Made by a program: the position numbers and the translations under genes
The notes under the pieces: generated by a model
What the model saw: the letters and a program-made list of their open reading frames with translations, nothing else
Databases searched by the model: none
What the model was told of the DNA's origin: nothing
Source: a virus
Lineage: Duplodnaviria > Heunggongvirae > Uroviricota > Caudoviricetes
Strand: one strand, 5' to 3'
Virus record (IMG/VR): IMGVR_UViG_3300024268_000043
Coordinates: 13,665 to 77,664 of that record
DNA: 64,000 bases
Shown: piece by piece, positions 5,127 to 31,463 of the stretch
Layout: every line of letters starts with the position of its first letter
Position numbering within the stretch: the stretch's first letter is position 1

Positions 5127-6942
5127 AATATCTCTTTTTCTCTTCCTTCTGTCTTGCCTCAGAGAATGCAGACACTCTCTTAAGATAGCCGATGATTCTC
5201 GTTAGGTAATCAATGTTTGTGCTTCCACACTTTTCACAATGATCTAAACGGTGCTTACTAATATGTCCGCATTCATTACAGATTGTGTTGGGGATATTGA
5301 AGGTGAAGTAAGAACATCCGGTCTTAATTGCATCATTCATCAGCACTTTATACTGTTCCTTTGTAAGATGCTCATTAAGGTTTGCATGGAGCGCACTACC
5401 ACCATCGAGATACTTTGTAAGCTTTTCTCCGTGAAGAATGAACTTATCTACTACGTTTGTTCCTTCATCTTCGACAATATAGAAATAACTATTATAGCAA
5501 TCACGGGGAACGAAGTATCCGTCTTCTCTGTCCCACTTGGCATTCTTTACGCCCAGATTTTCAGCAGGGACGAATTCCGTATTAAACATCAATTCGTCAG
5601 TTCTCTCTGCTTTGTTGAGTTCATAGATGGGCTTAAGAATTTTTTCACAATAATTGAAATACTCATCATTGGGCGTAATCGGAATACCTAAAAACTCAGC
5701 ACCCTCTACAAATCCATTTACGCCAATCGTTACAAACTGCTTGTCAAGAGATATGTATCCGGCATCGTACACAGGAAGGAGTCTTGCGTTGAAATTGTCC
5801 TTCATAATCTCATTAAATGCCTTAAGGTAACAATGCACTTTCTTAATCTGTTCGGTTACCGCCTCAGAAATGTCTCTGTTGGACTTTGTTGCGTCCTGTA
5901 CAAGCCTATTAATGTTAATAGTAATAACTCCCTTAGAACCAGTAGATACACCACCAGCACCAAGAGTAAATGAGAAAGTGTTATCCTGAAGCTCATTACG
6001 AAGTCTACAACAACTTGCAAGAGAATCTACGCTTCCGCTTCTATATGTAAAGAACGAATGTCCTTCTGAGTACATTTCGGCCGCAAAGTCGAACCATTCG
6101 TTATCAACATATGACTTGCCATCATCAAGAAGATTTACGGTCTCTACGGGGAAGGTCAGAGGCTTTCTAAGTCTCTCTGCATTGAACCACTTCATAAATC
6201 TCTTCTGAAGCCAGTTCACGCTTTTCCACTGAGGCTCAGTATCATCGGGGAAAATAAATTCGTGGAAGATTCCATCAAAATAATTCTTATCGAAATATGC
6301 AATATTCCAGAATACTGCCTGATATCCTCTTGCCGCAGCAGGCTGATTGATAGAATACACTACCTGTCCAAACTTATCAGTGATTACTTTGTCGATAGTT
6401 TTAGGTTTATTGCTCATAGTAACAACCTTATCTGCATTAAGATAATAGTCGTCGCCATATTCCTTTCTAATAAAGTAATCAAGATATGTCAAAAACTCAG
6501 GTGTCGATACTGCTCCGGCAAACTGTGACGCAATGGCAAACACCAAGTTGATGAATGACCCACAGAATGAATCAAGATTCTGTGGAGCCTCAGAAAGTCC
6601 ACCAATAGATTTAAGTCCTTCAAACAAGAATGGATACATAGTAATACTTACGCAATAAGGCATTACTGAAGTTTCGTCGTGCTTGTAAATCTCGTGAGAT
6701 TCAAGCTGTCTGATATACTCATCTGCCATATCCTCGCCAAACATTTCGGAAATCTTATTCCACATAAGCAATCTGTTTGTTCCAATTAGGTCTCTCTTGG
6801 GTAACTCTCCCTGCATTGTTGCAATGTTCTTATTTTCAACATTGGCATTTGCGTCTACTTCACTACCACTTGATGCATTGCTTGCCTTCTTATACTTATT
6901 AATAAAATTTACATATTTTGAATAACTACTATACTTAGCCAT
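5119..6942 (-). CDS. nrdD: anaerobic ribonucleoside-triphosphate reductase
   Basis: 607 aa; C-terminal zinc ribbon (CNECGH...CEKCGS) followed by the glycyl-radical motif RIIGYL. Confidence 0.9.
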   Translation of the reverse strand: MAKYSSYSKYVNFINKYKKASNASSGSEVDANANVENKNIATMQGELPKRDLIGTNRLLMWNKISEMFGEDMADEYIRQLESHEIYKHDETSVMPYCVSITMYPFLFEGLKSIGGLSEAPQNLDSFCGSFINLVFAIASQFAGAVSTPEFLTYLDYFIRKEYGDDYYLNADKVVTMSNKPKTIDKVITDKFGQVVYSINQPAAARGYQAVFWNIAYFDKNYFDGIFHEFIFPDDTEPQWKSVNWLQKRFMKWFNAERLRKPLTFPVETVNLLDDGKSYVDNEWFDFAAEMYSEGHSFFTYRSGSVDSLASCCRLRNELQDNTFSFTLGAGGVSTGSKGVITININRLVQDATKSNRDISEAVTEQIKKVHCYLKAFNEIMKDNFNARLLPVYDAGYISLDKQFVTIGVNGFVEGAEFLGIPITPNDEYFNYCEKILKPIYELNKAERTDELMFNTEFVPAENLGVKNAKWDREDGYFVPRDCYNSYFYIVEDEGTNVVDKFILHGEKLTKYLDGGSALHANLNEHLTKEQYKVLMNDAIKTGCSYFTFNIPNTICNECGHISKHRLDHCEKCGSTNIDYLTRIIGYLKRVSAFSEARQKEEKKRYYE

Positions 6943-10636: not shown

Positions 10637-11437
10637 TTAAATAGTCTCCTTGTCTCCACTTCTTATTCCATATCGTTCGAACAGCTCTCGTTGTGGTGCA
10701 AAATCACCATAATACTTTGCTTCTGCATTTAGACGAGCCATTATTGCATCGTTCTTATCTACATATCGTCCCAGCCAATGTATCTGTTTATCAATATGAA
10801 TTGATGCTATCCAATTGTTATTACTCTTATCCCAATATACACCAGTAAACCCGCTTGTATTATCTTTTCTTTTTGTATGATTTCTTGCGTTTTCTGATTG
10901 TGTGGCTGGTCGCAAATTGTTCCTTCGGTTGTTTAACGTGTTCCTATCAATATGATCGCATAATTCATATCCAGTCAACACATACCACATCGAAACATAT
11001 CTTTTTTCGGTTTTATCCCACGCTTCAAGCATTCGATATCCATTTTGATGTATATGTTCATACCAACAATAGTTATCTATAAGAAGATCCTTATCTTCTT
11101 TGTCAAAATAGAATTCTGAATTAGTATTTAATGTTAATCCAACATAATATTCATCCTTTATATCTACCGGATTTGTTTTATTATTGTTTTTGCCTATATC
11201 TCTTGTTTTTTCTCTTCTAATACACCCACACGAATTTGTATGCCCGTTTCTTAAATGTTGACCCGTCGAAATCACATAATCAGAATTACCGCACGAACAT
11301 TTACACTTCCATTGCGGCGTGCGTGTTTGAGTATTTGGATTAATATAATCCTCCGCTCTCTCAACTATTGTCAATCTACTATTTGGAACTCCGTGTTCCG
11401 ACATAACCCAACCTGTCATATCTATGAACTTTCTCAT
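10637..11437 (-). CDS. HNH homing endonuclease with AP2 DNA-binding domain
   Basis: Cys cluster (CKCSCGN...CGC), HNH_3-like DHIDRN...N...NL, AP2-like C-terminus; paralog of 40685..41485; its stop overlaps the ligA start. Confidence 0.7.
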   Translation of the reverse strand: MRKFIDMTGWVMSEHGVPNSRLTIVERAEDYINPNTQTRTPQWKCKCSCGNSDYVISTGQHLRNGHTNSCGCIRREKTRDIGKNNNKTNPVDIKDEYYVGLTLNTNSEFYFDKEDKDLLIDNYCWYEHIHQNGYRMLEAWDKTEKRYVSMWYVLTGYELCDHIDRNTLNNRRNNLRPATQSENARNHTKRKDNTSGFTGVYWDKSNNNWIASIHIDKQIHWLGRYVDKNDAIMARLNAEAKYYGDFAPQRELFERYGIRSGDKETI

Positions 11438-19433: not shown

Positions 19434-20810
19434 TCATTCTGTATCGTTTTCAACCGACTCTGCTTCCTCGATATCAGGAGCCTCAGCCTCCACCTTAACA
19501 ATTCCTTCAAGGGCTTTAAAGAACCAATTCTTATGCTTATAAGCACAGAACTTAGGACGATTTATGATACGAACTACCACACCCTCGCGAATATGAGTCT
19601 TGCCTATAGGGTCGGGTCCATCATAGTACTTTTCTGCTCTTGCCATAACATACTCACCAGGTTTCTTATTCTTTGCTGGAATTGTAAACTTGTCAAACAC
19701 AGGCACACACTTAACACCCATCTGTTCACAACGATAACGCATAAAGTCAGGAGTGTATTCTACTATGAAGCCATCTTCGTTGGTCATAGTCATACGATAT
19801 ACATAGATGTCAGACTGAGGAAGAGTGTCTGCGAGTTGAAGCTCACCATTTTCATTGACATAATCGGCGGGTGTTTCATCCACACAAGGCACACATCCAT
19901 AAGAGAATACCGTTGTCTCTCCATACTTCTTTACAAAGTCCTTATCGTTGAGCTTCTTGTTATCACCGCTCGCCATAATAGGAGTACCAGTATGAGTGAA
20001 ACCAACTACTTCATAGAAAATTTCCTCGCCCTTATTTAACTTGCCCTCAAAGAACTTTGAATGTGCTTCACGGAATTCGTTACTTCCGTAATATCCACCT
20101 TCAAAATTCTCAAGCACTGTACGACGAGTGCCAGATACATAGCCCCAATCATAGATGGGCTTGCCTTCCTTGCGAGTGATTTTGTCCCATAGGGTTTTCT
20201 TGTAGCTCTTGAGTACGGGAAAATCGCCGGTTCTCTGACTCGTTCCGTGCATCTTGAGTGTAATCTCAATCTCGTCGCCAGGCTTAAAAGCAGCAAGATT
20301 ATACGCAAGTTGTTCGGTATCTGCGTGCTCCGCAAACAAGGGTGCTACAGGAACTTTCTTCTTGCGAGTCTTGTTGCCCTCTGAATAATGTCCTCTTCTA
20401 TTCTGGGTACGAGGTACATACTTACAGCAAATCTCATGTCCATTGAAGTTGTCAATTCTGTCACCCTCACGAAGAGTTGTAATATCTCCGAAAGACTCAA
20501 GTGACTTAAGGGGAAGAAAGAGTCCATCTGACTTCTCTCCACGCAGTTTGATAGCAGTCACATTTCTCTTGTCTGGGTCCATATAACCACCGATGTTATT
20601 GCCGTTCTCATCCTTCTTACGAAGCAGGTTGTTGGCCTCGGCAAACTCCACAGACAACTGCCCGTCTGAGGGGAAATATACGCCGAGCTGATTATCCTCG
20701 TATTCCATTGATACGATTACGGCATTTCCGAAGCACTCTCCAATCTGAAGTCTATCAGCATTAGGGTGCTTGTGCATATTCTTAATCCTTGTAATATAAG
20801 CGTTATACAT
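19434..20810 (-). CDS. RNA ligase (Rnl2-like nucleotidyltransferase) with N-terminal tRNA-binding OB domain
   Basis: N-terminus KHPNADRLQIGE = tRNA-binding (Myf/Trbp111-type) motif; ligase motif I LKMHGTS (KxHGT), III EEIFYEVVG, IV HIREGVVVR, V YKHKNWF. Confidence 0.7.
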   Translation of the reverse strand: MYNAYITRIKNMHKHPNADRLQIGECFGNAVIVSMEYEDNQLGVYFPSDGQLSVEFAEANNLLRKKDENGNNIGGYMDPDKRNVTAIKLRGEKSDGLFLPLKSLESFGDITTLREGDRIDNFNGHEICCKYVPRTQNRRGHYSEGNKTRKKKVPVAPLFAEHADTEQLAYNLAAFKPGDEIEITLKMHGTSQRTGDFPVLKSYKKTLWDKITRKEGKPIYDWGYVSGTRRTVLENFEGGYYGSNEFREAHSKFFEGKLNKGEEIFYEVVGFTHTGTPIMASGDNKKLNDKDFVKKYGETTVFSYGCVPCVDETPADYVNENGELQLADTLPQSDIYVYRMTMTNEDGFIVEYTPDFMRYRCEQMGVKCVPVFDKFTIPAKNKKPGEYVMARAEKYYDGPDPIGKTHIREGVVVRIINRPKFCAYKHKNWFFKALEGIVKVEAEAPDIEEAESVENDTE

Positions 20811-24339: not shown

Positions 24340-24590
24340 GGCAGTGTGCTACCACTACACTACCGGGCCAATGCATATACATCAACCCAGACCGGAATCG
24401 AACCGGTGTTACTGCCTGTGGTGCCCCGAGCGGGAATTGAACCCGCGACCCACAGATTATGGTGGTTGAAGCAAGCTTCGAACTTGCGTCCCTCCCCTGC
24501 CTTCTCGGCTACCAGGGAGACTCTATCCAGTTGAGTTATTCAACCAAAGTCTGTTGCTCTACCATCTGAGCTACCGGAGCATATATTAAA
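24340..24590 (-). other. cluster of tRNA-like fragments / irregular tRNA-like elements (possible pseudo-tRNAs)
   Basis: Several canonical 5' halves (acceptor + D-arm: GGCCCGGTAGTGTAGTGGTAGCAC; GCTCCGGTAGCTCAGATGGTAGAGC) and 3' halves (T-arm + acceptor + CCA) whose acceptor strands do not pair with one another; one 91-nt element (GGTTGAA...TTCAACCACCA) has a matching acceptor but a 28-nt anticodon region. Confidence 0.35.
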
Positions 24591-25649: not shown

Positions 25650-27265
25650 CATATTAAATGCAGCCTTACCCTAACTGCCACTGGTAATCGTTATCCCAAC
25701 CTTCTTTCGAAGTTGCCAGTCCCTTCAAGTGTTTGCTTTACCATCAACCGCAGATTCCATCACACTCGGCCCTTCAATCAGATGCACAATGATAAAGCGA
25801 TGATTTGCAAATCATTTTTGCCCTTGTCGGGCTAAACTTGTGGCTGGACTTACACCTCTACAAGATGCCCTTCCACTACGCATATAAACCCCTCACTTTC
25901 TTTGATGGTGGAGGAAACCACATTTTGTAGTCAATTCACAAAATGGCTTTACCGAGTTTCACGGTCTTTTTAGATGAAGCGTCCTGCAGTCGTTACCTGC
26001 CACTTGGAGTCCCTTCAACCTGTCAATAGGATATTCGTATCATTCGGATTTCCCGACTTTTTTCGAATAGTAGTATGTTATAACTACACGCCATTACTAA
26101 GCCTTTCGATGCTTCCCGAGTACAGCCCAGCGAAGACGCACTCGTTATGAATTTGAAGACCTCATCCGTATCGTGTTTGCAACCACTACACAGGAAAAAC
26201 TAATATCGTACTCATTATTTCAGAGCATTGATATTCTCAAAAGCCTTAGCCTTCTCGACTTTTATCCCACATGTGCTACCACCTTGTTTTATGACTACAA
26301 GGAAAACAATAATATGACTGGCTCACCCGCAAAAACAGTCTGGATAAAATGCTCTCTGGTGATGATTGTAGCTCCACCTAAACTCCACAGTCTTTCACTT
26401 TATCACTATGCCCTTCACTACAAATCGGCGGGTTTTTAAAACGGAAACGCCATTGCTGACGAAACCTCAACTCAACCCACACTACTACAAGCCTAATCAC
26501 TTGGCGCGAATTGAAGCCCTCAGTGAGTTTACACTTACATTGCCACGCGAGAAAGGATGGGTGAGTAATGGTAGTTTTCTTTCGGCTTTCACCTATCGTA
26601 GAATTGGCTCACTATCAACCGTTTGTGCTTCTCCCTAACCCCTTCACTCCCTACGCCGAGCAAAGGTCTTCATCGGATTCGATACCGCCTCAAGAATGCG
26701 ATAACATGGACCGGTCTACCAGTCGTGCAGATTTGCTCCCATTCACCAGAGAAGACTTCTCCCTTTTTCTGTTGTGTAACCAACGCTCCGTCCCTTACAT
26801 ACGGAATTAAAGAGGGTGAATTGTGATACTTACCTACCCGCAGGATAATGTAAGTTGTTCGTTAATCCTTGCAGTAGAAACCCCTCAACATTCATTGAGT
26901 ACCGATTTACCACATACCTACTTCTACTGGATTGGATCAACCTTTAAATCACTCGCTTGATTAGGTGCAAGCGAACACCAATTATGGCAGGTTGACAACC
27001 TCTCTGCCACGAGGTTTACTTAGTTAGGTGGAGTTTCCTCCGCAATAAAATTAATCATAATTCAATCTCCTTTCCTAAGTAGATTTGCAAGCCTACGCAC
27101 ATCCTCGCTTGCCTTCTATCCTACCGAGCCTCAGTTTACTGCAGACACCGAGGTGATCCTGTGCGTTTCCGACGGTTAAGGATAACCGCTTTGTCACCGT
27201 TTGTCTTACACGGGCAGAAATTTGTCCGAGAATACCAATATCAGTTTAAAATATGTAGTCCAGAA
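25650..27265 (-). ncRNA. about 1.6 kb ORF-free, GC-enriched region: candidate large structured non-coding RNA (GOLLD/ROOL-like, or an ORF-less intron)
   Basis: No ORF above 90 aa on either strand in an otherwise gene-dense genome; GC content visibly higher than flanking coding DNA; embedded in the tRNA/Y-RNA array, the typical neighbourhood of phage-borne giant ornate RNAs. Confidence 0.4.
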
Positions 27266-27269
27266 CCAA

Positions 27270-28095
27270 ATGTACTATGAAGTAACTGATAAAACCGCAT
27301 CGGAACAATATTATATTTTCGAGGATATTTTATAGAGTAAACAAATATGCATAATATAAGGGAGTTATATAATTCAAACTTATCATTAATTTCTATGAAG
27401 TAACTCTATAATCTGCATCGAAAATAGTTTTTTCATTTGAATTTACGAGAATAAATGTAACAGTACATTATAACGTTGCGCTACCAACTGCGCCACCTCC
27501 CGTTATAGTCGGGAGGGTAGGACTCGAACCTACGACACACGGCACCCAAAGCAAGAAGTAACTGTTACGACTGCATCGTAAATATGGTATAAGAATTATG
27601 AGAATAACTAGATTAGTAATTTTAGCGCTCTACCTGCTGAGCTACAACCCAATTGGGTAGGTTGGATTCGAACCAACGACCTCTCGGTTAACAGCCGAAG
27701 TAACTAATCTAACTGCATCATAATTAATATCTGTGTAATTTGTGAGAATATCGACAATAGTATAAAGGCACCTTTGCCTATAACAAATGGACGTTATAAA
27801 AAGAATTGAACTTTTCGAAGTAACTATCATCACTGCATCACAAATAGTTTATGCTATTAAATTTCTGAGAGTATCGAAATGAGTTTATGTAAACTAATTG
27901 GAAGTTAGTAGGTATTTTGATTAGAAGTCAAAGCCTGAAGTAACTCATTTCACTGCATCAGAAATGTAGTCCAAGGAAGAAATGCTTGAGAAAAACGACA
28001 ATGCTAAAGTACGGACTCGAACCGCTATATCAGTTTTCAAGACTAATTTTCAACCAGATGAAGTAAGCATTAATCACTGCATCAAGCATTTATAT
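27270..28095 (-). ncRNA. tandem array of about 7 Y-RNA-like (YrlA-like) tRNA-mimic modules immediately upstream of the Ro60/Rsr gene
   Basis: Seven copies of a conserved 23-nt element (minus strand GATGCAG-N7/8-AGTTACTTC) at 119-158 nt spacing. Modules at about 27440-27578 and 27580-27722 carry a canonical T-arm (GTAGGTTCGAGTCCTAC; GTTGGTTCGAATCCAAC) and D-arm (GCGCAGTTGGTAGCGC; GCTCAGCAGGTAGAGC) in which the acceptor 3' strand is joined directly to its complementary 5' strand (CCTCCCG-ACTATAA-CGGGAGG; CTACCCA-AT-TGGGTTG), while sequences flanking the module are mutually complementary. This is the topology described for bacterial Y RNAs: tRNA-like domain closed at the acceptor, long Ro-binding stem formed by the ends. 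Confidence 0.55.
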
Positions 28096-28100
28096 TAAAA

Positions 28101-29753
28101 TTAATTATTTGAATCAATTGCGTTCCACTGGTCAATCATCGCCTTAGCGAATACGGCTTCTTTACCAGTCCATCCGTACATTATGTTGGTACGATACGCA
28201 TATTCGGGTAGAACCGCGTTGTCATAACCTGCAGTCTGCACAGAGAACACATTCACTTTAGGATTAACCTTCTTACGGTACTCCTGTACGAGCTTGAACA
28301 CATTGATATAAGAGCCATCTACAAACCAACCACGTCCACAGCCATATCCACGATTCTGATATTCCGTCTTATGTCTGTCGGTGCCATAGAGACCACCGTG
28401 ACCAGCCTGCTGATCGGAATAAATAAAGATATTATCCCAGTGTTCCTTGTTGGCAATGGCGTCTCTGAAGAACTCCCAAATACCACCCTCGGTAGCACCA
28501 CCTACATCACTATATCTATTTCTGGTAATCTCCTGTGCCTGAGAGAGAACGCCCTTACGCTTACTGATAGGACTTACGATAAGCTTGTCGCCAAACTTGC
28601 CTACATATCCTTCGTCAGAACAAGCAGCAGTAATTACAGAAGAAAGATTATCAATGTCTGCCACAGTAACAGTGCCATACTCAGAATTAAGAGCACCCCA
28701 AGCCGAACCAGAATTATCTGACAAGCACATAGTCTTGCCGGAAAGCTTAGGATAATTTTCAAGTGAAATATCCATGCACTCCTCAAGAGCATCAATAATT
28801 AAAGGCTGATGATTGCATTTGCTCGTTCTAATAGCTTGAATAGCAGAGTAATAACGGAACGGAAACTGCTTGCCGTCAACTACACCACTCTTAAGCTTCT
28901 CAAGATACTTCTTGCAAAACTCACTATCCTCTATTTCGGTAAACACTCCTCTGATGTTGCGGAGAAGTGCCATATGACCCATATCAACGGTGTCGAAAAT
29001 TTCCTTCCAAGACTTGCCCTCGGAACGAAGGTTTTCCCAAGTCTTCTCGTCTTCTTTAACTTCGACGGTGCCGGTAGTCATAAGTTCATCAATAACCTTA
29101 GAGTTAGCGTGGCAGAGACGAACTCCGTTAATCATACCAATCTCGTGATTCTTATACTTAGCAACCTTATAACGAGAGAGTTTACTAAGGTTCTTTGCCC
29201 AAGAACGCTTGATAATAGAAGGGATGTTGTTCTTCTTACCCTTATTAAGATACAGATAATAAGCCATCTGAGACATAGGTTCATCTGCTCTCTTCATAAC
29301 TTGCTGATTATACTCATCAAATTTACCAGGATTATCGTCGGTCCATTCTTTACGCTTAGGATGAGTAGCAGCTCTTACCATAATAACCTGAGGGTTAAGT
29401 CTCATCATATAGTCACTACGAAGAGTCGTTGCCCACTCAAGAGTTGCACCAAAATCATAATCAAGTGCCGCGTCGATGGATTCTTCCATAATAGTTTCAG
29501 TATCTTTGCCTTCATAACACTTAGGAATAACACTAAACTCTTTAACAAGGGCATCAACAACATATGCCTTTCTCGACTTAGATCCTCTGTAATACGACGG
29601 CTCTCCAAAGATTGAAGACGCACTAATCATCTTAAGAGTATCAAGAGGATTAATCTTATAGGAATCTCCTCCCATAAAGTTAGTGACCGTTTCGTCAAGT
29701 CTAAGATTGTTTCTCTGATTCATTTCAGAGACTGCTTTAGAAATCTTGCTCAT
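28101..29753 (-). CDS. rsr: Ro60/TROVE-domain protein (Rsr-like) with C-terminal vWA domain
   Basis: 550 aa, the size of bacterial Rsr; C-terminal vWA MIDAS motif CLSDNSGSAWG (DxSGS); adjacent to the tRNA-like Y-RNA-like array, as in bacterial rsr-yrl loci. Confidence 0.55.
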   Translation of the reverse strand: MSKISKAVSEMNQRNNLRLDETVTNFMGGDSYKINPLDTLKMISASSIFGEPSYYRGSKSRKAYVVDALVKEFSVIPKCYEGKDTETIMEESIDAALDYDFGATLEWATTLRSDYMMRLNPQVIMVRAATHPKRKEWTDDNPGKFDEYNQQVMKRADEPMSQMAYYLYLNKGKKNNIPSIIKRSWAKNLSKLSRYKVAKYKNHEIGMINGVRLCHANSKVIDELMTTGTVEVKEDEKTWENLRSEGKSWKEIFDTVDMGHMALLRNIRGVFTEIEDSEFCKKYLEKLKSGVVDGKQFPFRYYSAIQAIRTSKCNHQPLIIDALEECMDISLENYPKLSGKTMCLSDNSGSAWGALNSEYGTVTVADIDNLSSVITAACSDEGYVGKFGDKLIVSPISKRKGVLSQAQEITRNRYSDVGGATEGGIWEFFRDAIANKEHWDNIFIYSDQQAGHGGLYGTDRHKTEYQNRGYGCGRGWFVDGSYINVFKLVQEYRKKVNPKVNVFSVQTAGYDNAVLPEYAYRTNIMYGWTGKEAVFAKAMIDQWNAIDSNN

Positions 29754-30113: not shown

Positions 30114-30283
30114 ATTCGATGAGCAATCTTTAAAACCTACTGCAATAGGAAACTCAACTGCTCGGAGTTTTTGGATGAAAGGAGGTGTTTTCGTGATAAC
30201 AAATCACATATTTCTAAGTCTCATAAAGGGTGGTGCGGGAAACCGGGGTCGAACCGGCACGGGCATAATGCCCACGGGATTTT

Positions 30284-31255
30284 CTTCCCACTCTATGTCG
30301 CCATAGCCGATTTCTCGTTGTGGGCTGGACTATGTCTTAACCATATCTTGCGACTTAGGTTGACTCCGTATAGTCTCTACGCATTTTATCAATAAACAAT
30401 CTACTAATTAGGAAGGAATTGCACTTGCCATCCTTTGCAGTTTCACTCTGCCTATAGCCGACTTACCGTTATTGACGTTATAGATTGTTTATTTAATTTA
30501 GTACGGCGTTCTCAGAATCTTCGCCGTTTAGAAGCCATTCACTCAAGAGGTTTCCCTCCTGGTGCTCCTGCATAAGATGTACTATGTTGTACTTAAAAAT
30601 AAGCTCCCTTGCTCGGCGATAATTATCGCCTTTTGGAGTTAGCCCTAACCTTCTCAGAGCTTGTCTGATATTAGGACTGTTCCTCAATACCTCCGCAAAA
30701 TCATCGTCCGACACCTTAACAACCCCATTGTTGATGTTCTTGCCACGATAATTTTTTGTAAGAGCATGACAGTTTGGACATAATAATTTCAAATTTTCCA
30801 TTTCATTATTCAAAGAATCACCATCTTCGTGATGTACTTCCAATGGTATTGGTTGATTCAACCACTCTTCTTTGTTACATCGTTCGCAGCGATGTCCTCT
30901 AACATAAGACAAAGCTGCTACAGCCTGAGATGTTTTAATTACAACTCCTTGACGAAATCGTGTGTAATCAAAATTGTTTTTATTCCAGGCCTGGTTTTTA
31001 AAGTGAGACACATCTAGATCAAGCTCTTCAATCATAGATTTAAGAGTAGTCAAACAACTGCCACTCGTTGTTAAATATCCCAACTTCTCTGCCAGCGATG
31101 CAAATCCGTCACTGTCTTGTACAAACTTTTCAATCTCTTGCCGAGTAAAATTTCTCCACTTTGCTATCTTCATAATACCCTCTCCAATATAAATTGAAGA
31201 GTAATTTTTCAGGTATCTTTTGTGGAATCTTTTAGAGAAAAATCACCTTCTGATA
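30284..31255 (-). mobile_element. group I intron (about 972 nt) in the tRNA-Leu(UAA) anticodon loop, carrying an HNH homing-endonuclease ORF
   Basis: Bounded by the tRNA exons above; 5' exon terminal U / intron terminal G; a GACTA-containing segment in the about 200-nt region downstream of the ORF, consistent with a P7/G-binding core; encloses ORF 30493..31173. Confidence 0.65.
30493..31173 (-). CDS. intron-encoded HNH homing endonuclease
   Basis: HHEDGDSLNNEMENLKLLCPNCH = HNH motif with zinc-ligand Cys pairs (CERCNK...CPNCH); lies wholly inside the tRNA-Leu intron. Confidence 0.7.
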   Translation of the reverse strand: MKIAKWRNFTRQEIEKFVQDSDGFASLAEKLGYLTTSGSCLTTLKSMIEELDLDVSHFKNQAWNKNNFDYTRFRQGVVIKTSQAVAALSYVRGHRCERCNKEEWLNQPIPLEVHHEDGDSLNNEMENLKLLCPNCHALTKNYRGKNINNGVVKVSDDDFAEVLRNSPNIRQALRRLGLTPKGDNYRRARELIFKYNIVHLMQEHQEGNLLSEWLLNGEDSENAVLN

Positions 31256-31293
31256 AAGTCCCGGGCGTCTGCCTATTCCGCCATTCCCGCATA

Positions 31294-31434: not shown

Positions 31435-31463
31435 ATTATAGCACAAACTTTTCAGTTTGTCAA
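31435..31463 (-). promoter_or_regulatory. sigma70 consensus promoter (TTGACA-17-TATAAT) driving the tRNA-Leu/tRNA-Gly operon
   Basis: Minus-strand TTGACAAACTGAAAAGTTTGTGCTATAAT; TTGTAAAC direct repeat upstream; ACAAAATGATTG leader about 11 nt downstream of -10. Confidence 0.6.

What the first reader, a model, noticed from the sequence alone, without database searches (positions are those of the whole stretch)
30231..31290. tRNA-Leu(UAA) split by a group I intron that carries an HNH homing endonuclease
A 5' tRNA half (acceptor GCGGGAA, Leu-type D-arm, anticodon stem CGGGA, loop CTT) lies immediately downstream of tRNA-Leu(UAG). Its exact partner (AAAA-TCCCG, long variable arm, T-arm, TTCCCGC-A-CCA) is 972 nt away. 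Both the acceptor stem (7/7) and the anticodon stem (5/5) are complementary across the gap, and joining gives the loop CUU^AAAA. The break falls between anticodon positions 34 and 35, the ancient tRNA-Leu(UAA) group I intron site of cyanobacteria and plastids. Exon 1 ends in U and the intron ends in G. The intervening sequence encodes a 226-aa HNH endonuclease. An intron-containing tRNA with a homing-endonuclease gene in a phage is rare. A short orphan tRNA-like 3' piece had first looked like a truncated tRNA before the partner was found.
Basis: seen in the sequence. Interest (0 to 1): 0.8.

Follow-up and report, generated by a model that had tools for sequence, protein, structure and literature searches.

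The report
Self-splicing intron inside a phage tRNA-Leu gene
A phage tRNA-Leu(UAA) gene is split at the classic anticodon site by a real group I self-splicing intron carrying an HNH homing-endonuclease gene; dozens of uncultured gut and rumen phages have close relatives, although a 2014 review states that no phage intron had been found in a tRNA gene.

Summary
On the minus strand, exon 1 (31290-31256) and exon 2 (30283-30231) join into an 88-nt class II tRNA-Leu(UAA). A 972-nt insert sits between anticodon positions 34 and 35 (CUU|...G|AAAA).

The insert is a genuine group I intron. Rfam's generic model gives only 27 bits. A covariance model built from nine independent ORF-less phage tRNA introns hits 30571-30278 at 149.8 bits (E 3e-40), full length, ending on the terminal G. 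Across 37 relatives, 96% of predicted pairs form and 35 of 51 pairs show compensatory changes.

The 226-aa ORF is an HNH endonuclease with an intact His/Asn/His and Cys4 motif. It lies in the P1 loop.

The element is not a rarity. One strict pattern found 50 distinct relatives in IMG/VR phage contigs and 32 hits in gut and rumen bacterial assemblies.

It is a new member of a known kind, in a setting (phage tRNA arrays) that I could not find described. Splicing and homing are inferred, not shown.

The parts
31256..31290 (-). tRNA-Leu(UAA) exon 1: acceptor 5' strand, D arm, anticodon stem 5' strand, loop C32-U33-U34
   Evidence: Sequence read directly. ARAGORN intron mode calls the split gene.
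30284..31255 (-). Group I intron, 972 nt, inserted between tRNA positions 34 and 35
   Evidence: ARAGORN gives i(36,972). Rfam RF00028 scores 27 bits, E 1.5e-4. Family model R1 scores 149.8 bits, E 3e-40.
30231..30283 (-). tRNA-Leu(UAA) exon 2: A35-A36-A37-A38, anticodon stem 3' strand, long variable arm, T arm, acceptor 3' strand, A73, CCA
30493..31173 (-). HNH homing-endonuclease ORF, 226 aa, in the P1 loop. Its last 26 codons overlap the guide sequence, P2, P3, P4, P5 and the P6 5' strand, and the TAA stop lies in P6.
   Evidence: ORF list. PHROG 10822 HNH endonuclease, 1.1e-38. Pfam HNH 20.6 bits, just under its 21.4 cut-off. H115, G118, N127 and H136 are invariant in 19 intron ORFs and Cys4 is present.
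30565..30567 (-). Internal guide sequence GAG, pairing with exon C32-U33-U34 (P1, with U34.G wobble at the 5' splice site)
   Evidence: Invariant GAG in the family alignment. It changes to GAA or GGA where the exon reads UUU (L008, L061).
30540..30564 (-). P2 hairpin with a GAAA tetraloop
   Evidence: R1 alignment. All 8 modelled pairs covary across 37 sequences.
30503..30536 (-). P3 5' strand (30536-30532), J3/4, and P4-P5-P4' (30527-30503)
   Evidence: P3 is 100% paired and all 5 of its pairs covary.
30389..30495 (-). P6 stem (30495-30490 with 30394-30389) enclosing a 93-nt L6 insertion of unknown role
   Evidence: All 6 P6 pairs covary. L6 is also where relatives carry large inserts or the ORF.
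30362..30375 (-). Conserved element R: P7 5' strand GACUAU (30375-30370) and P3 3' strand GAGUC (30366-30362)
30339..30361 (-). P8 hairpin carrying the CCUAAG/UAUGG 11-nt tetraloop-receptor motif
   Evidence: Sequence read directly. Pair counts.
30328..30338 (-). J8/7 and P7 3' strand AUAGUC (conserved element S)
   Evidence: P7 is invariant in all 37 sequences.
30285..30324 (-). P9.0 (CCCAC/GUGGG), P9 with a GAAA loop, and P9.1 (CUAUG-GCGA-CAUAG)
   Evidence: 11 of the 12 modelled pairs covary.
30284..30284 (-). Terminal G (omega G) at the 3' splice site
   Evidence: Aligned to the invariant G that precedes AAAAUC in every family member.
31435..31463 (-). Consensus sigma-70 promoter (TTGACA-17-TATAAT, with TG) that would drive tRNA-Leu(UAG), the split tRNA-Leu(UAA) and probably tRNA-Gly
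   Evidence: 12 of 12 consensus positions match. Function is inferred.

Best explanation
This is a mobile group I intron of the tRNA-type (IC3-like) design, lodged in the anticodon loop of a phage-encoded tRNA-Leu(UAA).

Proposed mechanism:
1. The tRNA operon is transcribed, probably from the consensus promoter at 31463-31435.
2. The ribozyme core (30571-30284) folds.
3. The guide sequence GAG (30567-30565) pairs with exon C32-U33-U34, placing the U34.G wobble at the 5' splice site.
4. Free guanosine attacks that site.
5. The terminal G (30284) then enters the P7 pocket and the exons are ligated, giving a normal 88-nt tRNA-Leu with loop CUUAAAA.

The exons' own anticodon and acceptor stems probably help bring the splice sites together across the 690-nt P1 loop.

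The HNH protein encoded in that loop would nick or cut intron-less tRNA-Leu(UAA) genes in co-infecting phages or in host DNA. Repair would copy the intron in (homing).

What is shown: the split tRNA, the ribozyme fold with covariation, the intact HNH motif, and family membership. What is inferred: splicing, endonuclease activity and its target.
For: Split tRNA:
- Exact 7/7 acceptor and 5/5 anticodon stems across the insert. ARAGORN calls both the split gene and the joined tRNA-Leu(UAA).

Ribozyme:
- Rfam Intron_gpI matches at E 1.5e-4, including the R and S elements.
- Model R1, built from 9 ORF-less phage introns and excluding the window, matches full length at 149.8 bits, E 3e-40. It is the only hit in 64 kb and ends on the terminal G.
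- Over 37 related cores, 96.3% of cells are paired, against 29-41% when partners are slid by 1-3 columns. 35 of 51 pairs have changes on both sides, and 0 of 500 shuffles reach the observed values.
- The window's own P3 (GGCUU/GAGUC) is a compensated version of the family's GCUGG/CCAGC.
- The guide sequence covaries with the exon: GAG with CUU, and GAA or GGA with UUU.

Relatives:
- L001 carries a 60%-identical HNH ORF in the same loop of the same kind of split tRNA. Its core passes Rfam's gathering score (55.6 against 50).

Endonuclease:
- PHROG 10822 at 1e-38. Catalytic H/N/H residues are invariant and Cys4 is present.
- Homologous ORFs occur in at least 20 other tRNA introns.

Signs of mobility:
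- The same intron family sits in Leu(UAA), Leu(CAA) and Leu(UAG) genes.
- L041 and L014 have near-identical exons and core but different L6 cargo, one with the HNH ORF.
- Intron-less tRNA-Leu(UAA) genes with an identical anticodon arm are common in viral contigs.
Against: - No RNA or biochemical data exist for this sequence.
- P1 is only 3 bp plus a wobble and must close a roughly 690-nt loop. Several relatives have a significant loop-closing helix (z -2.6 to -4.9), but the window does not (z +0.4).
- The ORF has lost the stop codon that in relatives overlaps the guide sequence. It now reads 23 extra codons through the core, so translation could interfere with folding.
- P3 has two G.U pairs.
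- Rfam's own model scores below its gathering cut-off (27 against 50).
- Pfam HNH is marginally under its cut-off (20.6 against 21.4).
- The covariation alignment was fitted to the model's structure, which flatters the pair counts.
- No near-identical intron-less allele of this particular gene was found (best 74 of 88 identical).
Confidence: 0.85

Rival explanations
1. It is a decaying intron and the gene is a tRNA pseudogene. The ribozyme and ORF descend from a functional mobile intron, but this copy no longer splices efficiently, so the phage gets little or no tRNA-Leu(UAA) from it.
For: The window scores lower than most family members with R1 (149.8 against up to 217 bits). It has lost the stop codon at the guide sequence, so the ORF runs into the core. 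It has no significant loop-closing helix for the 690-nt P1 loop. P3 carries two wobble pairs, and there is a 93-nt insertion in L6.
Against: Every core helix is intact. All conserved junction residues (J3/4, J4/5, J6/7, J8/7, P7, terminal G) match the family consensus. The ORF is uninterrupted with all catalytic residues. Both exons are perfectly tRNA-like. Much of the score deficit is plausibly due to the large L6 insertion, which high-scoring relatives (L035, L047, L055) also carry.
Confidence: 0.12
2. There is no ribozyme. A free-standing HNH gene landed in, or recombined next to, a tRNA gene and left two tRNA fragments, and the group I resemblance is accidental.
For: Homologous HNH genes do occur free-standing between tRNA genes in other phages (L002, L004, L005). 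Rfam's gathering-threshold scan of the window reports no intron.
Against: The full-length family-model match at E 3e-40 ends exactly on the G before exon 2. P2, P3, P6, P8 and P9 covary. The guide sequence matches the exon. The break falls exactly at 34/35 and leaves a perfect 7-nt loop.
Confidence: 0.01

Closest known systems
[quoted passage not shown] 1990, Kuhsel et al. 1990)
   Same: Same host gene and same insertion point, written CUU/...g/AAAA by Williams. P1 uses GAG against CUU. It is a compact tRNA-type core with a GNRA-capped P2 and P9. [quoted passage not shown] 1993, listed).
   Different: The classical intron is about 250 nt with no ORF and sits in a cellular or plastid chromosome. 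This one is 972 nt, carries an HNH gene in the P1 loop and a 93-nt L6 insert, and sits in a phage tRNA array. I did not score a cyanobacterial sequence against the family model, so the degree of direct homology was not measured.
HNH-encoding group I intron in tRNA-Leu(UAA) of Bacteroidota (mSystems 2026, PMC13011429)
   Same: Same gene, and both carry an HNH-family endonuclease (PF01844) inside a group I intron longer than 500 bp. The same intron family occurs in Paludibacteraceae and Bacteroidales assemblies.
   Different: That survey covered complete bacterial genomes only. It found homing-endonuclease genes in 12 of 333 tRNA introns and does not report phage tRNA introns. I could not retrieve its sequence to compare directly.
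Azoarcus tRNA-Ile IC3 intron
   Same: From memory of the published sequence, the R element, P8 with the CCUAAG/UAUGG receptor, the S element and AUAGUCCAG are nearly identical in order and wording. L2 and L9 are GAAA loops in both.
   Different: It sits in a different tRNA at a different loop position, is about 205 nt with no ORF, and has a full receptor in P5, which is minimal here.
Synechocystis tRNA-fMet intron encoding I-Ssp6803I (Bonocora and Shub 2001)
   Same: It is a bacterial tRNA group I intron that carries its own homing endonuclease aimed at the anticodon region (cited).
   Different: The endonuclease is of the PD-(D/E)XK type, the tRNA is fMet(CAU), the site is 33/34, and the location is chromosomal.
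Phage intron HNH endonucleases (I-HmuI of SPO1, I-TwoI of Twort) and T4 SegB
   Same: These are phage-borne and HNH-type, and they nick intron-less alleles (I-HmuI and I-TwoI; established knowledge). SegB is a homing endonuclease that lives in, and drives inheritance of, a phage tRNA cluster.
   Different: I-HmuI and I-TwoI sit in protein-coding genes, and no solved structure is detectably similar by sequence. SegB is GIY-YIG and free-standing, not inside an intron.

Membership tests
Group I intron | P1 with a U.G wobble at the 5' splice site, formed by an internal guide sequence | tested here: met
   Exon U34 faces G30567 of the invariant GAG. The guide changes to GAA or GGA where the exon is UUU. 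C-1 variants pair C-G in the Leu(CAA) hosts.
Group I intron | Conserved core P3-P8 with the P3/P7 pseudoknot and the R and S elements | tested here: met
   The family model matches full length at 149.8 bits. P3, P6 and P8 covary, while P4 is nearly invariant (1 of 6 pairs has a change on both sides). P7 GACUAU/AUAGUC is invariant and so gives no covariation evidence. Rfam RF00028 scores 27 bits against a gathering score of 50 for the window, but 55.6 and 95.4 bits for relatives L001 and L003.
Group I intron | Terminal G (omega G) at the 3' splice site | tested here: met
   G30284 aligns to the invariant G before AAAAUC in all 61 family introns.
Group I intron | Guanosine-dependent self-splicing | not testable with these tools
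   This needs in-vitro transcription and a GTP chase, or RNA-seq.
Subgroup IC3 (tRNA-type group I introns) | Compact core without P2.1 or P5abc, with L2 GNRA docking to a P8 receptor and L9 GNRA docking to P5 | tested here: inconclusive
   L2 is GAAA, P8 carries CCUAAG/UAUGG, and L9 is GAAA. P5 is minimal here with no evident receptor. Subgroup covariance models were not available, so the assignment rests on resemblance.
tRNA-Leu(UAA) intron lineage (site 34/35) | Insertion between U34 and A35 of a class II tRNA-Leu with anticodon UAA | tested here: met
   The loop is CUU|AAAA, with a long variable arm and A73. Williams writes the classical site as CUU/a...g/AAAA.
tRNA-Leu(UAA) intron lineage (site 34/35) | Sequence homology to the cyanobacterial or plastid intron | not tested
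HNH homing endonuclease | beta-beta-alpha-metal HNH motif with catalytic His and Asn/His, and a Cys4 zinc site | tested here: met
   The motif reads HRCERC...EVHHEDGD...NNEMENL...CPNCH. H115, G118, N127 and H136 are invariant in 19 intron ORFs. PHROG 10822 matches at 1.1e-38. Pfam HNH scores 20.6 bits against a 21.4 cut-off.
HNH homing endonuclease | Encoded within a self-splicing element at the site it targets, with presence/absence polymorphism | tested here: met
   The ORF lies inside the intron. Homologues lie in L1 or L6 of related introns and also free-standing in tRNA arrays. L041 and L014 differ only in their L6 cargo.
HNH homing endonuclease | Site-specific cleavage of the intron-less allele | not testable with these tools
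   This needs purified protein and a synthetic target.

The most novel reading that the evidence does not exclude
[quoted passage not shown] On this reading the intron and its HNH gene move between tRNA isoacceptors (UAA, CAA, UAG, and UCA suppressor tRNAs), between phages, and into Bacteroidales and Clostridia chromosomes. Phages may also keep introns in anticodon loops because they delay tRNA maturation or shield it from anticodon-directed host defences. The same tRNA arrays hold two further, undescribed kinds of anticodon-loop insert: tRNA-like nested elements and 'ACAGCAA' mini-inserts.
Probability: 0.3. Interest if true: 0.7.

Novelty: new member of a known kind. Interest (0 to 1): 0.5.

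Why it matters
The 2014 review of bacterial group I introns states that all phage introns then known lie in protein-coding genes, despite the many phage tRNA genes. I found no later paper describing one in a phage tRNA gene.

This window, plus at least 50 distinct relatives in IMG/VR, shows that phage tRNA arrays are in fact a common home for the classic tRNA-Leu intron, often with an HNH homing gene.

Three things follow:
- tRNA finders run in default mode miss these genes, so phage tRNA repertoires are under-counted.
- Phages become a concrete, testable vector for the long-debated horizontal spread of the tRNA-Leu intron.
- The family offers a set of small natural ribozymes with and without endonuclease cargo in two different loops.

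Tried and rejected
- **Rfam at gathering threshold:** no intron reported in the window. Only the permissive scan showed RF00028, at 27 bits.
- **Megablast and blastn of the locus against 50,697 GenBank phage records:** only tRNA-exon hits, Twort-like intron cores, and one crAss-like hit. That last hit lies upstream of a terminase gene, not in a tRNA.
- **A typical family member (L048) against the same collection:** no match.
- **My first by-eye model:** it placed the P3 5' strand (GAUUCC) and P4-P5 upstream of the ORF. I dropped it once relatives and the family model placed the whole core downstream.
- **A loop-closing P1 extension in the window (AAGGUG/CAUCUU):** no better than shuffled sequence (z +0.4), although it is significant in several relatives.
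- **A hairpin that would hide the ORF's ribosome-binding site:** it is predicted but not significant (z -0.83).
- **Close relatives of the window phage, sought through the neighbouring SPFH-like gene:** none shares the tRNA-Leu arrangement, so there is no syntenic intron-less allele.
- **PDB sequence search with the HNH protein:** nothing useful.
- **Supplement of the 2026 mSystems paper:** it did not yield the Bacteroidota intron sequence.
- **The IC3 structure paper PMC110692:** not held in the library.
- **Pattern scan for the nested tRNA-like insert:** mostly chance hits, with 2 real among 50.

Full report
**1. The observation**

On the minus strand, tRNA-Leu(UAG) occupies 31377-31294. Three bases downstream begins GCGGGAATGGCGGAATAGGCAGACGCCCGGGACTT (31290-31256). 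It has a Leu-type acceptor, D arm and anticodon-stem 5' strand, and ends in loop bases C-U-U.

Its partner is AAAATCCCG-TGGGCATTATGCCCGTG-CCGGTTCGACCCCGG-TTTCCCGC-A-CCA at 30283-30231. ARAGORN in default mode misses the gene. With introns allowed it calls tRNA-Leu(taa) c[30231,31290] with a 972-nt intron. It calls the joined exons as an 88-nt tRNA-Leu(UAA) with perfect stems and a long variable arm.

The break lies between positions 34 and 35.

**2. Is the insert a group I intron?**

Rfam at gathering thresholds reports nothing there. A permissive scan gives RF00028 at 30586-30304: 27 bits, E 1.5e-4. The R element (GUAGAGACUAUACGG) and the S element (AAGACAUAGUCC) are aligned. That is suggestive but below the curated cut-off of 50 bits, so I looked for relatives.

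- The ORF's protein found five viral loci.
- In L001 a 60%-identical ORF sits in an identically split tRNA with loop CUU|AAAA. Its core passes Rfam's cut-off at 55.6 bits.
- A core pattern (AGAGACTA..CCTAAG..AGACATAGTCC) then found 69 IMG/VR loci.
- 63 of 70 pattern matches (the 69 loci plus L001) lie inside ARAGORN split tRNAs.
- After refining the boundaries there are 61 introns, 50 of them distinct. All sit at 34/35 and all end in G. Nearly all are in CUU|AAAA loops. A few are in CUC|AAAA (Leu-CAA) or CUU|AGGA (Leu-UAG) loops.
- Lengths fall into ORF-less (205-384 nt) and ORF-bearing (661-972 nt) classes.

**3. An independent model and covariation**

I built covariance model R1 from nine ORF-less members, leaving the window out.

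- R1 hits the window once, at 30571-30278, over the full length of the model: 149.8 bits, E 3e-40. The invariant terminal G falls on 30284.
- An alignment of 37 contiguous cores shows 96.3% of cells paired, against 29-41% when partners are slid by 1-3 columns.
- 35 of 51 pairs have changes on both sides, and no shuffle out of 500 reaches the observed values.
- P2, P3, P6 and P9.0 covary at every modelled pair. P8 and P9.1 covary at most pairs. P4 is nearly invariant and P7 is invariant, so P7 is uninformative.
- The alignment was fitted to the model, which flatters these counts. The slid controls on the same alignment argue that the signal is real.
- The window's own P3 (GGCUU/GAGUC) is a compensated variant of the family's GCUGG/CCAGC.
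- The guide sequence is an invariant GAG facing exon CUU. It becomes GAA or GGA in L008 and L061, where the exon reads UUU.

**4. Anatomy in the window**

| Element | Coordinates (minus strand) | Notes |
|---|---|---|
| Guide sequence GAG | 30567-30565 | pairs with exon CUU |
| P2 | 30564-30540 | GAAA loop |
| P3 | 30536-30532 with 30366-30362 | two G.U pairs |
| P4-P5 | 30527-30503 | |
| P6 | 30495-30490 with 30394-30389 | encloses a 93-nt insert |
| P7 | 30375-30370 with 30333-30328 | |
| P8 | 30361-30339 | CCUAAG/UAUGG receptor motif |
| P9.0, P9, P9.1 | 30324-30287 | P9 has a GAAA loop |
| Terminal G | 30284 | |

The whole core lies downstream of the guide sequence, so the ORF (31173-30493) occupies the P1 loop. 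Its last 26 codons run through the guide sequence, P2, P3, P4 and P5, and its TAA stop is part of P6.

In L001, L037 and L012 the ORF's stop codon overlaps or abuts the guide sequence. The window has lost that stop and reads 23 codons further.

**5. The ORF**

- PHROG 10822 'HNH endonuclease' matches at 1.1e-38.
- Pfam HNH scores 20.6 bits, just under its 21.4 cut-off.
- In an alignment of 19 intron ORFs, H115, G118, N127 and H136 are invariant. The two CxxC pairs are present in all but two divergent members.
- Homologues occupy either the P1 loop or L6 of related introns. They also occur free-standing between tRNA genes (L002, L004, L005).
- L041 and L014 share near-identical exons and core but carry different L6 cargo, one of them this HNH family. 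This is the pattern expected of an endonuclease gene that moves independently of its intron.

**6. Context**

The window is a one-strand block of phage-type replication and nucleotide-metabolism genes. It includes a large DNA polymerase, NAD ligase, RNA ligase, NrdD, RecJ, DnaB, primase, a Sak4-like protein and integrases, together with several tRNA clusters. Relatives of its neighbouring gene lie mostly on 55-208-kb IMG/VR contigs, plus a few short fragments.

A perfect sigma-70 promoter sits upstream of the two Leu tRNAs. No GenBank phage record holds a close relative.

The same intron family occurs 32 times in 185,579 species-representative genomes. Nearly all of these hits are gut, rumen or faecal assemblies (Paludibacteraceae, Bacteroidales, Clostridia and others). 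Some have the split gene as the only tRNA within 8 kb, and others sit in phage-like arrays.

**7. Mechanism and its weak points**

The best-supported reading is a self-splicing, homing-competent intron. The steps are given under the best explanation. The weak points are these:

- P1 is a 3-bp helix plus a wobble pair closing a loop of about 690 nt.
- There is no significant loop-closing helix in this copy (z +0.4), unlike L012, L031 and L056 (z -3.7 to -4.9).
- The ORF has read through into the core.
- There are no RNA data.

[quoted passage not shown] 1993, listed). The same help is available here. I put 0.85 on a genuine, probably functional intron, about 0.12 on a decaying copy, and about 0.01 on no ribozyme at all.

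**8. Comparison with the known, and novelty**

The site and design are those of the classical tRNA-Leu(UAA) intron.

- A 2026 survey of complete bacterial genomes found endonuclease genes in only 12 of 333 tRNA introns, including an HNH gene in a Bacteroidota tRNA-Leu(UAA).
- The 2014 review states that all phage introns then known were in protein-coding genes.
- I found no paper describing one in a phage tRNA.

So this is a new member of a known kind, in a setting that appears undocumented but is common in metagenomic phage contigs. Interest is moderate, at 0.5.

**9. Side observations**

The tRNA arrays of this window and of related phages also carry shorter anticodon-loop inserts that cannot be group I introns.

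- The window's tRNA-Gln(UUG)-like gene (24580-24419) holds an 87-nt insert that folds as a cloverleaf ending in ACCA.
- Compensated acceptor stems occur in two other phages (L005/L288 and L255).
- A second class of 41-68-nt inserts shares an ACAGCAA motif.

These may be more novel than the assigned finding and are listed separately under things noticed in passing.

Noticed in passing
window 24419-24580 (minus strand); also L005 6050-6199 and L255 (around 6322-6398 on its minus strand): A tRNA-Gln(UUG)-like gene (Rfam tRNA, 51.9 bits over 159 nt) has an 86-87-nt insert in its anticodon loop (CUUUG|...|AA). The insert folds as a cloverleaf: acceptor GGUUGAA/UUCAACC, D-like and anticodon-like arms, T arm GCAAG-UUCGAAG-CUUGC, then ACCA (RNAfold -30.7 kcal/mol). 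Two other phage contigs have the same design with different, compensated acceptor stems. It is too short for group I. It may be excised by RNase P and 3' processing and the halves rejoined by the phage RNA ligase (window 19434-20810), but this is untested. I found no description of it.
   Followed up: partly
L128, L147, L166, L187, L202 (three tRNAs each in several of these); L036 6833-7101: A second kind of short anticodon-loop insert (41-68 nt) occurs in phage tRNAs of several isoacceptors. Most of these inserts contain a small hairpin, and all share a conserved ACAGCAA motif. Its nature is unknown.
   Followed up: no
L005 1462-1604, L049 6832-7018, L036 1896-2018, L035 6669-6788: Further 44-112-nt anticodon-loop inserts resemble acceptor/T-arm minihelices. 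All have a closing stem plus a T-arm-like hairpin. Three of the four end in CCA followed by one base, and the L005 insert ends in GUAU instead.
   Followed up: no
window 27473-27707 (minus strand) and 28101-29753 (minus strand): Two weak YrlA (Y RNA-like) matches (about 37 bits, below the gathering score of 69) lie next to a 550-aa ORF matching PHROG 850 'RNA-binding protein'. By its sequence I take this ORF to be Ro60/TROVE-like, which was not tested. If so, this would be a phage-borne Ro/Y-RNA module. ARAGORN's 'tRNA-Lys with intron' at 27508-27651 is probably the tRNA-like part of these RNAs.
   Followed up: partly
L011, L015, L044, L060 (for example L011 at about 11088-11294, minus strand): The same phage contigs that carry a Leu(UAG) intron also carry a 605-629-nt group I intron at 34/35 of a tRNA with anticodon UCA (loop CUU|CAAA). 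This is a UGA-reading suppressor-type tRNA, so recoding tRNAs can be intron-bearing too.
   Followed up: no
L001, L018, L030, L035, L038 (intron-bearing tRNAs of 76-78 nt): Some hosts of the intron have anticodon UAA or CAA but a short variable arm, so they do not have the class II shape expected of tRNA-Leu. Their amino-acid identity is unclear.
   Followed up: no
L014 2123-2890 versus L041 657-993: The exons and intron core are near-identical, but L6 holds a structured insert of about 130 nt in L041 and an HNH ORF of about 560 nt in L014. That ORF contains in-frame TAG codons, meaning either a decaying gene or a TAG-recoded phage.
   Followed up: partly
window 26036-26149 (minus strand); L002 4580-5172; L004 2016-2610: The window has a weak RAGATH-33 match (45.5 bits, gathering score 120). 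Related loci carrying HNH homologues have strong ROOL RNA matches (280-346 bits), and L005 (not L002 or L004) also has skipping-rope and cow-rumen-3 RNA matches next to its tRNA arrays.
   Followed up: no
window 31435-31463 (minus strand): A 12-of-12 sigma-70 consensus promoter with an extended -10 TG lies upstream of the Leu tRNA pair. Together with the strong GGAGAGGG ribosome-binding site of the HNH ORF, this hints at a Firmicutes-type host rather than Bacteroidota.
   Followed up: no
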